3,488 nucleotides of DNA from Naegleria gruberi (Eukaryota), in the NCBI GenBank assembly GCA_000004985.1, contig GG739222.1, one strand, 5' to 3'. Below the pieces are notes generated by a model. That model was not told where the DNA came from. It saw only the letters and a list, made by a program, of their open reading frames with translations, and did no database searches. Below, piece by piece: positions 1 to 3,488 of the stretch; position 1 is the stretch's first letter; each line of letters opens with the position of its first letter. The position numbers were made by a program, and so were the translations under genes.

Positions 1-89
1 CTCCAACCTCAGTACTGATGTGGCTCGACGATGCTTAACTTCTCAAATCGGACGGGATGAGGTGCATGAATCGTGATATGGCAGTAGCC
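1..89 (-). rRNA. 5S ribosomal RNA gene, 5' 89 nt (the remaining ~30 nt of the 3' end lie beyond the window start)
   Basis: Reverse complement of 1..89 is GGCTACTGCCATATCACGATTCATGCACCTCATCCCGTCCGATTTGAGAAGTTAAGCATCGTCGAGCCACATCAGTACTGAGGTTGGAG. It aligns position-for-position with eukaryotic 5S rRNA (S. cerevisiae GGTTGCGGCCATATCTACCAGAAAGCACCGTTTCCCGTCCGATCAACTGTAGTTAAGCTGGTAAGAGCC...): the GCCATA(T)C, GCACC, TCCCGTCCGAT, AGTTAAGC, GAGCC and AGTACTG/loop-E blocks are all present. The helix II arms are changed in a compensatory way (ACGAT ... ATCGT instead of TACCAG ... CTGGTA), which argues for a functional copy. Local GC content is far higher than the surrounding DNA. Confidence 0.85.
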
Positions 90-109
90 ATTCAATACCT
101 TAATTTGTG

Positions 110-120
110 AAATATAAAAC
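110..120 (-). promoter_or_regulatory. TATA-like element (minus strand TTTTATATTT) about 22-31 bp upstream of the 5S 5' end
   Basis: Minus-strand sequence upstream of the 5S start reads gTTTTATATTtcacaaattaaggtattgaat|GGCTAC. Upstream TATA boxes at about -30 are known for Pol III genes in several fungi (e.g. S. pombe). I call this on position and sequence only. Confidence 0.3.
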
Positions 121-614
121 GATTTAAACCTCCTTTCTTATTAATTCCTTTCAATAATCACCAGAATTTAAATGCACTTGACTGATTTCACAACTATTCT
201 TTTACAAGAACAAGTCACGTTTTTCAACATAATGAACTAATTCCCTAATAAGTGCTGTCCCTTTTGTATTTTTTTATTCTTACAACCAGAATGCAATATT
301 CACAATATTTACATTCTAAAATACAACACTTGAAAAAAGGTCTCCAGTATTGAGTGCATCCTTAATTAATGACAAAAGAAGAGAATGAAAGAAAACTTGA
401 TAATTGAACAAAACCACATTTTCAGGAGGAGAGTTAAAAATCTATGATAAACGCATGTGATATTGAAGAAGAGCCTCTCAATTCAATAGTGCTCTGTTCA
501 ACTAAATTGAAGTGTTCATAGAAGTGATCAGATAAGGTTAAATTTAAGTTTTTCATTCTCTTCATGAATGGTTAATAGACCATTTTGAATATGTTTATTG
601 TAAAATGAAGTTTA

Positions 615-1108
615 TTAGTTGATAATAATTAAAATTACAAAAAAGGTCATTGTGAATAGATAACTCCAAATGGTGGCACATTGAGATGTTCTTGAAATAT
701 CCACATTAACTGATTTTGTATCTGAAAGTGTTTGATAATTTGCCTTTAGAGAGATTGAACTTGAAGTTGTGGCTGACAATTGAACAGAGAATGAAGCAAC
801 ACCACAAATCTTGACCACTACATGTTCCTTTACCACTACAAACAGAACTACTGGAAGGTGAAATACCATAACATGTGAATAGGGATTGAGTGACAGTCAC
901 AGTAAACTGAGCAGAAGTCAATGTAGGAGCAGGACCTAAAATGGAACTAATAGAAGCTCTGGTACAGCAGATGAAGTGAAAGAGATGGCATAGTTTCTTG
1001 GAACAACATTTCCATCAGTGTCTACAATTCTAACTTCAGGTGTAAACTTGGATCCAGCCACAACAAGAGAAGGAGCAATAATAACCAATTTTGAAGCGGA
1101 CTTGGAAC
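615..1108 (-). CDS. 3' portion of an unidentified protein-coding locus with a Ser/Thr/Cys-rich product and a hydrophobic C-terminal tail. The reading frame is interrupted twice: possible pseudogene or indel errors next to the scaffold gap.
   Basis: Three minus-strand frames are open in succession, while the plus strand has stops in all frames here. (a) 1106->939 reads SKSASKLVIIAPSLVVAGSKFTPEVRIVDTDGNVVPRNYAISFTSSAVPELLLVPF, with a TAG stop at 936..938. (b) 1014->709 reads ...ASISSILGPAPTLTSAQFTVTVTQSLFTCYGISPSSSSVCSGKGTCSGQDLWCC..., with a TAA stop at 706..708. (c) 896->618 reads ...GVASFSVQLSATTSSSISLKANYQTLSDTKSVNVDISRTSQCATIWSYLFTMTFFVILIIIN, with a TAA stop at 615..617. Codon usage on the minus strand is yeast-like (TTG, AGA, GTT, GCT, CCA, TCT). 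The frame a->b switch coincides with a T4 homopolymer (plus-strand AAAA at 937..940). GC content is higher than in the flanking intergenic DNA. I could not identify the protein family from memory. Confidence 0.35.
936..1108 (-). CDS. Best-supported open segment of the above locus (frame a), 56 codons ending at TAG 936..938. Its 5' continuation is lost in the gap.
   Basis: The translation SKSASKLVIIAPSLVVAGSKFTPEVRIVDTDGNVVPRNYAISFTSSAVPELLLVPF* has a non-repetitive, globular-looking composition and preferred yeast codons (gtt, gct, aga, cca, ttg, aag). The opposite strand over the same bases uses rare codons and hits stops within about 25 codons upstream. Confidence 0.4.
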
Positions 1109-2604
1109 NNNNNNNNNNNNNNNNNNNNNNNNNNNNNNNNNNNNNNNNNNNNNNNNNNNNNNNNNNNNNNNNNNNNNNNNNNNNNNNNNNNNNNNNNNNN
1201 NNNNNNNNNNNNNNNNNNNNNNNNNNNNNNNNNNNNNNNNNNNNNNNNNNNNNNNNNNNNNNNNNNNNNNNNNNNNNNNNNNNNNNNNNNNNNNNNNNNN
1301 NNNNNNNNNNNNNNNNNNNNNNNNNNNNNNNNNNNNNNNNNNNNNNNNNNNNNNNNNNNNNNNNNNNNNNNNNNNNNNNNNNNNNNNNNNNNNNNNNNNN
1401 NNNNNNNNNNNNNNNNNNNNNNNNNNNNNNNNNNNNNNNNNNNNNNNNNNNNNNNNNNNNNNNNNNNNNNNNNNNNNNNNNNNNNNNNNNNNNNNNNNNN
1501 NNNNNNNNNNNNNNNNNNNNNNNNNNNNNNNNNNNNNNNNNNNNNNNNNNNNNNNNNNNNNNNNNNNNNNNNNNNNNNNNNNNNNNNNNNNNNNNNNNNN
1601 NNNNNNNNNNNNNNNNNNNNNNNNNNNNNNNNNNNNNNNNNNNNNNNNNNNNNNNNNNNNNNNNNNNNNNNNNNNNNNNNNNNNNNNNNNNNNNNNNNNN
1701 NNNNNNNNNNNNNNNNNNNNNNNNNNNNNNNNNNNNNNNNNNNNNNNNNNNNNNNNNNNNNNNNNNNNNNNNNNNNNNNNNNNNNNNNNNNNNNNNNNNN
1801 NNNNNNNNNNNNNNNNNNNNNNNNNNNNNNNNNNNNNNNNNNNNNNNNNNNNNNNNNNNNNNNNNNNNNNNNNNNNNNNNNNNNNNNNNNNNNNNNNNNN
1901 NNNNNNNNNNNNNNNNNNNNNNNNNNNNNNNNNNNNNNNNNNNNNNNNNNNNNNNNNNNNNNNNNNNNNNNNNNNNNNNNNNNNNNNNNNNNNNNNNNNN
2001 NNNNNNNNNNNNNNNNNNNNNNNNNNNNNNNNNNNNNNNNNNNNNNNNNNNNNNNNNNNNNNNNNNNNNNNNNNNNNNNNNNNNNNNNNNNNNNNNNNNN
2101 NNNNNNNNNNNNNNNNNNNNNNNNNNNNNNNNNNNNNNNNNNNNNNNNNNNNNNNNNNNNNNNNNNNNNNNNNNNNNNNNNNNNNNNNNNNNNNNNNNNN
2201 NNNNNNNNNNNNNNNNNNNNNNNNNNNNNNNNNNNNNNNNNNNNNNNNNNNNNNNNNNNNNNNNNNNNNNNNNNNNNNNNNNNNNNNNNNNNNNNNNNNN
2301 NNNNNNNNNNNNNNNNNNNNNNNNNNNNNNNNNNNNNNNNNNNNNNNNNNNNNNNNNNNNNNNNNNNNNNNNNNNNNNNNNNNNNNNNNNNNNNNNNNNN
2401 NNNNNNNNNNNNNNNNNNNNNNNNNNNNNNNNNNNNNNNNNNNNNNNNNNNNNNNNNNNNNNNNNNNNNNNNNNNNNNNNNNNNNNNNNNNNNNNNNNNN
2501 NNNNNNNNNNNNNNNNNNNNNNNNNNNNNNNNNNNNNNNNNNNNNNNNNNNNNNNNNNNNNNNNNNNNNNNNNNNNNNNNNNNNNNNNNNNNNNNNNNNN
2601 NNNN
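1109..2604. other. Assembly/scaffold gap (1496 N)
   Basis: Uninterrupted run of n from 1109 to 2604. Real sequence resumes at 2605 (ctctgg...). Confidence 0.99.
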
Positions 2605-2872
2605 CTCTGGATTCCTTATTTCTCAACTCAGAGCCATCACCATGGTAGGTGAATTCTCTTCCATAATGAGAGGATACACCTTCTTCAACAACATATCCCT
2701 TACCAGTAGTACCGAAAGTTTCAATTGCAAAGAATTCATTCTCTTCCATTTTGGTATTGTCTGGAGAAGCAACGATTGGAACTGATTTAGTTGAATGGAC
2801 ACGATATCTTTCGATTGAGTGTCCACACAAGTTTTCAATACTTTTAACTCTGTGAGTCTTTCCATTAATAGT
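2605..2872 (-). CDS. MAP2: Methionine aminopeptidase 2 (MetAP2, M24A), downstream exon. It is 3'-truncated by the gap; about 80 C-terminal codons are missing.
   Basis: The minus-strand translation from 2872 downward reads [89 protein letters not shown]... This matches yeast Map2 [61 protein letters not shown]...SHYAR and human METAP2 [34 protein letters not shown]...[11 protein letters not shown]. The catalytic His (GHSI) and Glu (AIETFG) metal ligands are present. The AG acceptor is at minus 2874-2873, immediately before codon ACT (2872-2870). The frame stays open into the N-run. Confidence 0.85.
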
Positions 2873-2936
2873 CTATTAGTATTAGTTCAACAAGCAATTA
2901 ACATTGTAAATATAAATGAATAAGAAAAATACATAC
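2873..2936 (-). other. MAP2: Spliceosomal intron of the MetAP2 gene, 64 nt, phase 0
   Basis: The minus-strand sequence is GTATGTatttttcttattcatttatatttacaatgttaattgcttgttgaACTAATactaatAG. It has a yeast-type GTATGT donor, an ACTAAT branch-like motif about 10 nt from the AG, and is very AT-rich. Removing it joins ...QEVMESYEV to TINGKT..., restoring colinearity with human and yeast MetAP2 ([11 protein letters not shown] / [11 protein letters not shown]). Read unspliced, the frame hits TAA at 2898..2900 after 12 nonsense codons (VCIFLIHLYLQC). Confidence 0.8.
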
Positions 2937-3473
2937 AACTTCATAAGATTCCATTACTTCTTGAATGGCAGCTCCAACATCTCCCAATCTAACATCAATG
3001 CCAGCTGTTCTGACACCCATGTTTGTTGCTTCCTTGACAGCATCCAACAATGGTTGATATTGATCATTCCAACACATGGTAAATGCAGAATCAATAATGG
3101 TTCCATTTACATGAGTTCCCAAATCAAACTTGATAACATCATCCTTTCCAATAACGGTTTCATCTCCACCATTTGGTGAATAATGAGCAGCAACATGATT
3201 GATGGAACAACCCAATGGAAAAGCAAGTCCACTCTTCTTCTTGTCAGCTTCCAACAATTCTCTAGCCTTTGCTTCATACATTTCAGCTGCATCAATAACC
3301 TTCATTCCAGGTTTAACAACTGAATCCTTGAACCATTTTCTGGCAGTTCTGTGAACCTCAGCTGCATGTCTTGCTTCCTTGAGACGTTCTTGCAACTTTT
3401 CATCTCTTTCTTCAGCACCAGGCTTCAACTCAGAAGGATGAATCTCTTGGTCTTGTAATCGTATTGTCCCAAT
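2937..3473 (-). CDS. MAP2: Methionine aminopeptidase 2 (MetAP2), upstream exon covering the start of the catalytic pita-bread domain. The 5' boundary is uncertain.
   Basis: Minus-strand translation: (IGTIRLQDQEIHPSE)[164 protein letters not shown]. This is colinear with human METAP2 ...[30 protein letters not shown]...[52 protein letters not shown]...[23 protein letters not shown]. Conserved residues include the fumagillin-reactive His (AAHY) and both Asp metal ligands (FDLGTH, IIDSAF). Homology is clear from about 3425 downward. The frame is open up to an in-frame TGA at 3474..3476, so the true exon start could be an acceptor between roughly 3440 and 3473, or the frame changes there. The 'M' shown at 3428 in the ORF track is a TTG (Leu), not an initiator. 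Confidence 0.85.
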
Positions 3474-3488
3474 TCACAGATTTCTCCC

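What the first reader, a model, noticed from the sequence alone, without database searches (positions are those of the whole stretch)
615..1108. Unidentified minus-strand gene tail with two frame breaks and a GPI-signal-like hydrophobic C-terminus
The plus strand over 615..1108 is closed in all frames, but three minus-strand frames are open one after another and together tile the whole interval, all with yeast-like codon usage. The conceptual products become increasingly Ser/Thr/Cys-rich (TSAQFTVTVTQSLFTCYGISPSSSSVCSGKGTCSGQ; SATTSSSISLKANYQTLSDTKS) and end in IWSYLFTMTFFVILIIIN*. A polar Ser/Thr-rich stretch followed by a ~15-residue hydrophobic tail at the extreme C-terminus resembles the GPI-attachment signal of fungal cell-wall proteins. 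The first frame switch coincides with an A4/T4 homopolymer at 937..940, and the locus abuts a scaffold gap where consensus quality is usually worst. So either this is a real gene corrupted by two 1-nt indel errors, or it is a genuine frameshifted pseudogene. A tandem CSG(K/Q)G repeat (plus-strand accactaca x2 at 812..840) also hints at a repetitive, slippage-prone cell-surface gene.
Basis: partly seen in the sequence, partly recalled or inferred. Interest (0 to 1): 0.5.

Follow-up and report, generated by a model that had tools for sequence, protein, structure and literature searches.

The report
Broken Naegleria surface-protein gene copy
The stretch is the 3' half of a Naegleria gruberi (not yeast) gene for a secreted surface protein whose reading frame is broken by two missing pieces of 76 and 242 bases, so it is a dead gene copy or a cloning artefact in a tiny unplaced scaffold, which is ordinary.

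Summary
Window 615-1108 (minus strand) is coding sequence read in frames c, b, then c again, ending in a hydrophobic tail. The window is a 3488-bp unplaced scaffold of Naegleria gruberi NEG-M, not a yeast.

Intact relatives of 426-427 residues span all three segments: P0184/P0185 (NAEGRDRAFT_79923) and P0181, with P0121 (NAEGRDRAFT_61604) as its truncated NEG-M model. Their architecture is signal peptide, Cys-rich N-domain, Ig-like domain, EGF, Ig-like domain, then a GPI-signal-like tail.

DNA alignment gives three ungapped blocks whose offsets jump by 76 nt (window about 961-967) and 242 nt (window 803/804). The frame breaks are therefore two non-3n deletions, not 1-nt homopolymer errors. They remove the core of Ig-like domain 1, half of the EGF and most of Ig-like domain 2. 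Reading from upstream stops at TAG 938-936.

My best reading is a recently disrupted third paralogue, either a pseudogene or a null allele (about 0.6). The main rival is a rearranged clone or low-coverage artefact (about 0.3). In favour of the rival, the neighbouring MetAP2 gene carries a 1-nt deletion relative to its otherwise identical main-scaffold model. The GPI-like tail is conserved but was tested only heuristically. Interest is low.

The parts
968..1108 (-). Block A, read in frame c (codons from 1106): SKSASKLVIIAPSLVVAGSKFTPEVRIVDTDGNVVPRNYAISFTSS. This is the N-terminal strands of Ig-like domain 1. The gene continues 5' into the gap.
   Evidence: Ungapped alignment to L003 875-993 (92%) and to L004 835-973 (86%). 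Protein alignments.
961..967 (-). Junction 1. Seven bases (CTGTACC on the minus strand) stand where the intact paralogue L004 has 83 nt (974-1056). The net loss is 76 nt, which is 1 mod 3, and it shifts the frame from c to b. The loss removes about 25 residues from the core of Ig-like domain 1.
   Evidence: Alignment offsets of 832 then 908 (L004) and 874 then 950 (L003).
804..960 (-). Block B, read in frame b: (R)ASISSILGPAPTLTSAQFTVTVTQSLFTCYGISPSSSSVCSGKGTCSGQDL. This is the last strand of Ig-like domain 1 plus the first half of the EGF-like domain. The EGF remnant with Cys1-Cys3 lies at 805-873.
   Evidence: Ungapped alignment to L004 1057-1213 (88%) and L003 1102-1256 (87%). In intact P0184, residues 269-296 match EGF_2 at 23.1 bits against a cut-off of 22.1. 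The window's joined protein gives no EGF hit.
936..938 (-). TAG stop met by a ribosome that continues in frame c after junction 1. This is the predicted end of any product of this copy.
   Evidence: Frame translations and sequence.
803..804 (-). Junction 2. 242 nt present in both intact paralogues are absent here (L003 1257-1497; L004 about 1214-1455). 242 is 2 mod 3, so the frame returns from b to c. The loss removes Cys4-Cys6 of the EGF and about two thirds of Ig-like domain 2. There is 1 nt of microhomology, and the boundaries are not GT...AG.
   Evidence: Alignment offsets of 908 then 1150 (L004) and 950 then 1192 (L003).
618..803 (-). Block C, read in frame c: GVASFSVQLSATTSSSISLKANYQTLSDTKSVNVDISRTSQCATIWSYLFTMTFFVILIIIN. 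This is the last strands of Ig-like domain 2 plus the C-terminal signal.
   Evidence: Ungapped alignment to L004 1456-1647 (89%); alignment to L003 1498-1700 (83%, with one 3-nt gap).
621..680 (-). A 20-residue uncharged hydrophobic tail (CATIWSYLFTMTFFVILIII) ending one residue before the C-terminus, preceded by small-residue candidate omega sites (SRTSQCA). It has the form of a GPI-attachment signal.
   Evidence: Heuristic analysis. The tail is conserved in P0181, P0184 and P0185 and is modelled as a terminal helix in P0184.
615..617 (-). TAA stop codon of the gene, followed directly by a second TAA at 612-614. It sits at the same position as the stop in L003 and L004.
1109..2604 (.). Scaffold gap of 1496 N. 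It should hold the 5' half of this gene (about 474 nt, by comparison with P0184 residues 1-158) and the last 78 codons of MetAP2.
   Evidence: gap coordinates; lengths of the homologues.
2605..3488 (-). Neighbouring MetAP2 gene, used as an internal control. It has exons 3488-2937 and 2872-2605 and a 64-nt GTATGT...AG intron at 2873-2936. It is 100% amino-acid identical to N. gruberi XP_002681251.1 (P0182), apart from a 1-nt deletion between 3441 and 3440 that shifts its frame.

Best explanation
Window 615-1108 (minus strand) is the 3' half of a third paralogue of a small Naegleria gruberi gene family. The family encodes secreted surface proteins of about 426 residues. Their architecture is: signal peptide, Cys-rich N-domain, Ig-like beta-sandwich, one EGF-like domain, a second Ig-like beta-sandwich, then a short polar stretch and a 19-20-residue hydrophobic C-terminus of the GPI-attachment-signal type.

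In this copy, two internal stretches present in every intact relative are missing: 76 nt at window about 961-967 and 242 nt at window 803/804. Neither length is a multiple of three, so the reading frame goes c, then b, then c. The two losses sum to 318 nt (106 codons), which is why the last block returns to the first frame.

Shown:
- The identity of the gene.
- The block structure and the size and position of the two losses.
- That the losses cut through folded domains. They remove the core of Ig-like domain 1, Cys4-6 of the EGF, and most of Ig-like domain 2.
- That translation entering from upstream would stop at TAG 938-936, before the EGF, the second Ig-like domain and the membrane-anchoring tail.

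Inferred:
- This is a real, recently disrupted copy in strain NEG-M, either a pseudogene or a null allele, kept apart by the assembler in a 3.5-kb unplaced scaffold.
- It makes no functional surface protein.
For: Identity of the window:
- One search shows a 179-aa N. gruberi NEG-M partial protein (XP_002668200.1) on a contig of exactly 3488 bp.
- One search shows the window's MetAP2 is 100% identical to NEG-M XP_002681251.1.

Gene family:
- One search gives E = 2.8e-28 to NAEGRDRAFT_61604.
- Searches give P0181, an intact ORF at L003 298-1683.
- Searches give P0184 (intact ORF at L004 361-1641) and NEG-M NAEGRDRAFT_79923 (427 aa).
- Alignments show one protein covering all three window segments, including the C-terminal tail.

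Deletions:
- Searches give three blocks, ungapped against L004, at 83-92% nt identity.
- The alignment offsets jump by 76 and 242 nt against both L003 and L004.
- There is not a single 1-2-nt indel inside about 490 aligned bases, which argues against base-calling noise.

Domains:
- One search gives EGF_2 at 23.1 bits (cut-off 22.1) in P0184.
- One search gives beta-sandwich segments at residues 160-256 (pLDDT 65-78) and 320-403.
- One search gives weak Ig-like (MG, CARDB, PKD) fold matches.
- One search finds no EGF in the window's joined product.

Real rather than artefact:
- One search finds no annotated NEG-M protein for this paralogue, although both other paralogues are annotated.
- Searches show that another NEG-M family member (61604, on a 1.55-Mb scaffold) also carries frame-disrupting damage relative to its 98%-identical environmental counterpart.
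Against: - The scaffold is tiny, gapped and probably covered by very few Sanger reads.
- It contains at least one base-level discrepancy: a 1-nt deletion in MetAP2, 47-48 nt from the scaffold end, relative to an otherwise identical main-scaffold model.
- Outside the two deletions the copy looks like a working gene. It has no in-frame stops and no small indels. Its dN/dS against L004 is 0.38, compared with 0.27 between the two intact paralogues. Its own branch shows 8 synonymous and 10 non-synonymous changes, against 15 and 17 for L004 (Fisher p = 1).
- Two sizeable deletions about 160 nt apart, with nothing else wrong, would also fit a single rearranged plasmid clone.
- I could not read the main 693,645-bp scaffold or any reads, so whether the deletions exist in the NEG-M genome is untested.
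Confidence: 0.6

Rival explanations
1. Artefact. The NEG-M genome holds an intact gene here, and the two deletions arose in a plasmid clone in E. coli or during assembly of a very-low-coverage mini-scaffold.
For: - The layout is a 3488-bp scaffold of two contigs of about 1 kb around an estimated 1.5-kb gap.
- MetAP2 differs from its main-scaffold model only by a 1-nt deletion near the scaffold end.
- There is no sign of relaxed constraint, and no stops or small indels within the blocks.
Against: - Base-calling errors do not remove 76 or 242 nt.
- About 490 aligned bases contain no single-base indels.
- An assembler could not join reads across junctions with only 1-12 nt of similarity.
- No intact protein of this paralogue is annotated in NEG-M.
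- Two independent clone deletions within 160 nt would be unusual.
Confidence: 0.3
2. One reading: an intact gene corrupted by two 1-nt indel sequencing errors, the first in the A/T homopolymer at 937-940.
For: A 1-nt deletion of this kind does occur in the neighbouring MetAP2 gene.
Against: - The alignments to two intact ORFs place the frame changes at a 76-nt and a 242-nt length difference.
- The stretch around 938-941 aligns without any gap in frame b (ASISSILGPAP against ASISSLSGSAP).
- Repairing single bases would still leave the domains truncated.
Confidence: 0.03
3. The copy is expressed and yields a shortened but useful product. One version is a secreted N-domain fragment ending at TAG 938-936. 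Another is a product rescued by splicing or recoding.
For: Codon-level conservation persists in all three blocks.
Against: - Conserved coding blocks abut directly at junction 2, and the junction has no GT...AG boundaries.
- Junction 1 leaves only 7 nt.
- No room exists for an intron of Naegleria size; the only intron in the window is 64 nt.
- The truncated product would lack the EGF, the second Ig-like domain and the anchor signal.
Confidence: 0.05
4. Not a gene. The open frames are compositional accidents in intergenic DNA or a 3' UTR.
For: The ORF lengths (56, 102 and 93 codons) fall within what shuffles of this AT-rich stretch give.
Against: - Homology at E = 2.8e-28.
- 83-92% nt identity to intact ORFs, with dN/dS well below 1.
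Confidence: 0.01

Closest known systems
Naegleria gruberi NEG-M NAEGRDRAFT_79923 (XP_002676775.1, 427 aa) and its environmental counterpart P0184 (ENA ERZ929261 contig, L004)
   Same: This is the closest relative, at about 82% amino-acid and 86-89% nt identity in blocks A-C. It has the same order of Ig-like, EGF and Ig-like modules and a nearly identical C-terminal tail: SRTSQCA(A/T)IWSYLFT(I/M)TFFVIL....
   Different: It is intact, whereas the window copy lacks 76 + 242 nt (106 codons) and is out of frame in between. It lies on a different scaffold (418,085 bp), so the window is a separate paralogue and not an allele of it.
Naegleria gruberi NAEGRDRAFT_61604 (XP_002683601.1, 316-aa model) and its intact counterpart P0181 (L003)
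   Same: It belongs to the same family, at 79% amino-acid identity to the window segments. The 3' flank of L003 also matches the window downstream of the stop codon.
   Different: The damage in the NEG-M model is of a different kind. It has lost two residues, including an EGF cysteine, and its last 13 residues are the +1 frame of the orthologous DNA. It carries none of the window's deletions.
EGF-like domains of the EGF_2 / teneurin-like type (Pfam PF07974, PF23106), as repeated in many protist surface proteins (FTC(Y/F)G...VCSG.GTC...C.C..GY.G..C)
   Same: The window keeps the first half of this motif: FTCYGISPSSSSVCSGKGTCSGQD. About 55 of the 60 proteins found match only this part.
   Different: The window copy has lost Cys4-Cys6 and gives no Pfam match. 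The family carries a single EGF between two Ig-like domains rather than an EGF array.
GPI-anchored surface proteins of eukaryotic microbes (a class, not a homologous family)
   Same: Intact relatives have an N-terminal signal peptide. All members have a C-terminal uncharged run of 19-20 residues ending 0-1 residues from the terminus, preceded by small residues.
   Different: No dedicated predictor or experiment was available. A C-terminal transmembrane anchor with no cytoplasmic tail fits equally well. The family is not related to fungal cell-wall GPI proteins.

Membership tests
N. gruberi 79923/61604 surface-protein family | Significant sequence similarity along the whole available length, in the same module order | tested here: met
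   E = 2.8e-28. Alignments A1 and A2 cover all three segments. DNA blocks are 83-92% identical.
N. gruberi 79923/61604 surface-protein family | One uninterrupted ORF of about 426 codons | tested here: not met
   Two non-3n deletions (76 and 242 nt) and a premature TAG at 938-936. The 5' half lies in the gap.
EGF-like domain (Pfam EGF_2, PF07974) | Six-cysteine module scoring above the Pfam gathering threshold | tested here: not met
   The window product gives no hit, and only Cys1-3 remain. Intact P0184 scores 23.1 bits against a cut-off of 22.1.
Ig-like beta-sandwich domains | A seven- to eight-stranded sandwich fold with structural matches | tested here: inconclusive
   The P0184 model has mean pLDDT 46.8. 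Residues 160-256 reach 65-78 and are all-beta. Foldseek hits to MG, CARDB and PKD domains have E about 2e-4 and TM-scores normalised to the target of up to 0.66. Pfam MG4 scores only E = 0.046.
GPI-anchored protein | N-terminal signal peptide | not testable with these tools
   The window's N-terminus is in the gap. Intact relatives start MKVSNLLFICLFLFTFAY..., but no signal-peptide predictor was run.
GPI-anchored protein | C-terminal signal: small omega, omega+2 residues, a short polar spacer, and a hydrophobic tail reaching the C-terminus | tested here: met
   My own heuristic only. It finds a 20-residue uncharged run with mean Kyte-Doolittle score 2.2, and omega candidates S/S/C with spacers of 4-9 residues. 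big-PI and PredGPI were not available.
GPI-anchored protein | Demonstrated lipid anchor (PI-PLC release, ethanolamine labelling) | not testable with these tools
   This needs an experiment.
   The organism is Naegleria gruberi. The 'Ser/Thr-rich' stretches are strands of Ig-like domains conserved in the relatives.
Unprocessed pseudogene | Homology to a functional gene plus frame-disrupting lesions | tested here: met
Unprocessed pseudogene | Relaxed selective constraint on its own lineage | tested here: inconclusive
   The window branch has 8 synonymous and 10 non-synonymous changes, against 15 and 17 on the L004 branch. Omega is 0.38 against 0.27. The counts are too few to decide, and the result is compatible with a recent event or an artefact.
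Unprocessed pseudogene | The lesions are present in the genome, not only in one clone | not testable with these tools
   The N. gruberi main scaffolds and reads could not be fetched.

The most novel reading that the evidence does not exclude
The laboratory strain NEG-M may be losing members of this small surface-protein family. Two of its three paralogues look disrupted: this copy by 76- and 242-nt deletions, and NAEGRDRAFT_61604 by a frameshift and the loss of an EGF cysteine. The environmental N. gruberi-like organism in ERZ929261 keeps intact versions of at least two. This would be an example of surface or adhesion genes decaying under long axenic, clonal culture.
Probability: 0.15. Interest if true: 0.35.

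Novelty: new member of a known kind. Interest (0 to 1): 0.15.

Why it matters
It matters little beyond annotation.

- It identifies an unannotated, disrupted third member of an uncharacterised N. gruberi family of probably GPI-anchored proteins with Ig-like and EGF modules.
- It corrects the taxonomic guess from yeast to Naegleria.
- It shows that frame breaks next to assembly gaps need not be homopolymer errors.

If the deletions are real, and the damage in paralogue 61604 is real too, the locus becomes a small data point on gene decay in a long-cultured amoeba strain. It would also be a caution for anyone using the NEG-M proteome as the reference for Naegleria surface proteins.

Tried and rejected
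- **Word-index search.** The joined window protein found nothing, although P0121 shares a 21-residue exact stretch with it. I treat that negative as a tool miss. The exhaustive search found the family.
- **Pfam on the window segments.** Only sub-threshold noise (FANCA_arcN and similar).
- **Synteny with N. lovaniensis.** The gene downstream of its MetAP2 is unrelated, with only a faint PAP2_3 hit, so it gives no help.
- **Metagenome contig L001.** It carries a MetAP2 relative, but it ends before any relative of the target and does not overlap L003 or L004.
- **Fetching N. gruberi main-scaffold DNA.** P0001, P0121, P0182, P0185 and the window's own 84-aa ORF all returned 'not on record'.
- **JGI metagenome scan for relatives.** None found.
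- **Exact 21-mer across junction 2.** It gave 61 hits, all 25-nt coincidences in what look like bacterial contigs (many labelled human gut).
- **Intron rescue of the frame.** Rejected. There are no GT...AG boundaries, the conserved blocks abut at junction 2, and only 7 nt lie at junction 1.
- **Retro-processed copy or cDNA contamination.** Rejected, because the neighbouring MetAP2 keeps its intron.
- **Rfam and tRNA scans.** Nothing in 615-1108.
- **The Fritz-Laylin 2010 genome paper.** It is not held in the library.

Full report
**What the window is**

The window has three parts: a left contig (1-1108), a run of 1496 N (1109-2604), and a right contig (2605-3488).

The right contig encodes methionine aminopeptidase 2 on the minus strand. 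Its best database matches are Naegleria proteins: 91% to one N. gruberi copy, 80% to N. lovaniensis and 77% to Willaertia. A cluster look-up lists a 179-residue 'predicted protein, partial [Naegleria gruberi]' (XP_002668200.1) on a contig of exactly 3488 bp, and its sequence is encoded in the window. The window is therefore a small unplaced scaffold of the N. gruberi NEG-M draft assembly, not a yeast.

The window's MetAP2 is 100% identical over 273 residues to another NEG-M model, XP_002681251.1 (P0182), which sits on a 693,645-bp scaffold. The one exception is a missing base between 3441 and 3440, which breaks ...KTKRF|HPSEL... into two frames. The gene has a 64-nt GTATGT...AG intron at 2873-2936.

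**Checking the observation**

- The plus strand of 615-1108 carries 18, 10 and 14 stops in its three frames.
- The minus strand is open over 1106-939, 1014-709 and 896-618.
- The first and third of these are the same frame, so the pattern is c, b, c rather than three different frames.
- ORF length alone is not remarkable for this composition. Shuffles give a 99th percentile of 114 codons.

**Finding relatives**

A word-index search with the joined conceptual protein found nothing. An exhaustive HMMER scan found N. gruberi NAEGRDRAFT_61604 (P0121) at E = 2.8e-28. It also found many proteins that match only residues about 70-106, the EGF-like motif.

P0121's cluster contains a longer environmental version, P0181, which is one uninterrupted ORF at L003 298-1683. 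A profile search added P0184, a 426-residue intact ORF at L004 361-1641. Its cluster mate is NEG-M NAEGRDRAFT_79923, 427 residues, on a 418,085-bp scaffold.

Protein alignments show that these relatives cover all three window segments. That includes the C-terminal ...GVASFSVQLS...LKANYQTLSDTKSVNVDISRTSQCA(A/T)IWSYLFT....

**What causes the frame breaks**

At the DNA level, the window's minus strand aligns to both intact ORFs in three blocks. Against L004 all three are ungapped. Against L003 block C has one 3-nt gap, and block B two 1-nt gaps that cancel.

| Block | Window | L004 (identity) | L003 (identity) |
|---|---|---|---|
| A | 1106-968 | 835-973 (86%) | 875-993 (92%) |
| B | 960-804 | from 1057 (88%) | 1102-1256 (87%) |
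| C | 803-612 | 1456-1647 (89%) | 1498-1700 (83%) |

In both comparisons the alignment offset jumps by 76 nt between blocks A and B, and by 242 nt between blocks B and C.

- At junction 1, seven bases stand where L004 has 83.
- At junction 2, the flanks abut with 1 nt of microhomology. The boundaries read TA...AG or GT...AA, so this is not a spliced intron.
- 76 is 1 mod 3 and 242 is 2 mod 3, which reproduces the c, b, c pattern exactly.
- The sum is 318 nt, or 106 codons.

The TAG at 938-936 is simply where the wrong frame runs out. The two 'accactaca' copies encode CSGKGTCSGQ, the conserved core of a single EGF-like domain, not a slippage-prone repeat.

**What the intact protein looks like**

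- Intact relatives begin with a hydrophobic signal-like N-terminus (MKVSNLLFICLFLFTFAY...).
- A Cys-rich region of about 140 residues follows, with no Pfam match.
- P0184 residues 269-296 match EGF_2 at 23.1 bits against a cut-off of 22.1. P0181 matches EGF_Teneurin at 24.8 bits against 24.3.
- An AlphaFold model built from a four-sequence alignment is poor overall (pLDDT 46.8). It does give all-beta segments at residues 160-256 (pLDDT 65-78) and 320-403 (55-63), flanked by terminal helices.
- Foldseek returns only weak Ig-like sandwich matches: macroglobulin MG, CARDB and PKD domains.
- The last 19-20 residues are an uncharged hydrophobic run reaching the C-terminus, preceded by small residues.

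Together with the signal peptide, that tail gives the form of a GPI-anchored protein. A tail-anchoring transmembrane helix with no cytoplasmic tail is not excluded. The analysis was a heuristic of my own, not a trained predictor. One Naegleria pangenome study mentions evidence of GPI-anchored proteins in the genus (PMC9928731).

**Consequence for the window copy**

- Deletion 1 removes about 25 residues from the middle of Ig-like domain 1.
- Deletion 2 removes Cys4-Cys6 of the EGF and about two thirds of Ig-like domain 2.
- A ribosome coming from upstream would stop at TAG 938-936.
- The product would then lack the EGF, the second Ig-like domain and the anchoring tail.
- The joined window product gives no EGF match.
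- As assembled, this copy cannot make the family's protein.

**Is the damage real or an artefact?**

For real damage:
- The roughly 490 aligned bases contain no single-base indels, so base calling here is sound, and base-calling noise cannot remove 76 or 242 nt.
- An assembler could not have joined reads across junctions with so little overlap.
- NEG-M's annotated proteome contains the two other paralogues but no protein for this one.
- Another NEG-M family member, 61604, on a 1.55-Mb scaffold, is itself damaged relative to its 98%-identical environmental counterpart. It lacks two residues, including an EGF cysteine, and its last 13 residues are exactly the +1 frame of L003 1310-1348.

For an artefact:
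- The scaffold looks like a few paired Sanger reads around a 1.5-kb gap.
- Its MetAP2 has a 1-nt deletion, 47-48 nt from the scaffold end, relative to an otherwise identical model.
- Outside the two deletions the copy shows no decay. dN/dS is 0.38 against L004, compared with 0.27 between the intact paralogues. Its own branch has 8 synonymous and 10 non-synonymous changes, against 15 and 17 for L004.

That pattern means either a recent event, possibly a heterozygous null allele, or a rearranged clone. Naegleria is described as mainly a heterozygous diploid (PMC9928731).

**What I could not do**

JGI metagenomes held no relatives. An exact 21-mer across junction 2 hit only 25-nt coincidences in what look like bacterial contigs, many labelled human gut. 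N. lovaniensis has an unrelated gene downstream of its MetAP2.

**Verdict**

The breaks are two non-3n deletions in a third paralogue of an uncharacterised N. gruberi family of Ig-like/EGF surface proteins with a GPI-like tail. It is an ordinary pseudogene, null allele or clone artefact in a scrap scaffold, so interest is low.

Noticed in passing
window 1-89, minus strand: A 5S rRNA gene (Rfam RF00001, 58.5 bits against a gathering score of 38, model positions 1-90 of 120) is cut off by the left end of the scaffold. A dispersed repeat at the contig end may explain why this scaffold stayed unplaced.
   Followed up: partly
window 3440-3441, minus strand: MetAP2 lacks one base (AAGAGATT-CATCC against AAGAGATTTCATCC in L001). 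This splits ...KTKRF|HPSEL... into two frames, although the rest is 100% identical to NEG-M XP_002681251.1. It lies 47-48 nt from the scaffold end, so it is probably a read-start error.
   Followed up: yes
L003 1310-1348 (orthologue of N. gruberi NAEGRDRAFT_61604): The annotated NEG-M protein XP_002683601.1 (316 aa) ends in NLPVSNSHFHPL, which is the +1 frame of the intact environmental ORF. It also lacks 'CS', including an EGF cysteine. The NEG-M gene or its model is therefore truncated by about 120 residues and loses the second Ig-like domain and the GPI-like tail.
   Followed up: partly
L001, L003, L004 (ENA ERZ929261 / ERR1078381, PRJEB11402): This metagenome contains an N. gruberi-like amoeba. 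Its two family proteins are about 98% identical to the NEG-M ones, yet its MetAP2 contig is only about 90% amino-acid (79% nt) identical to either NEG-M copy on the 693-kb scaffold. Divergence across loci is therefore uneven, or the paralogues compared are different.
   Followed up: no
window 455-530 and L003 1706-2002: Short stretches of the 3' flank downstream of the stop codon are also conserved between the window and L003 (87-90% over 30-46 nt). The duplication that made the paralogues therefore extended beyond the coding region. No gene was recognised in window 90-614.
   Followed up: partly
N. gruberi 693,645-bp scaffold (not in the window): NEG-M carries two MetAP2 genes on the same scaffold (XP_002681149.1 and XP_002681251.1, in one 90%-identity cluster), plus a more distant third (P0012). 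The window corresponds to the second of these.
   Followed up: no
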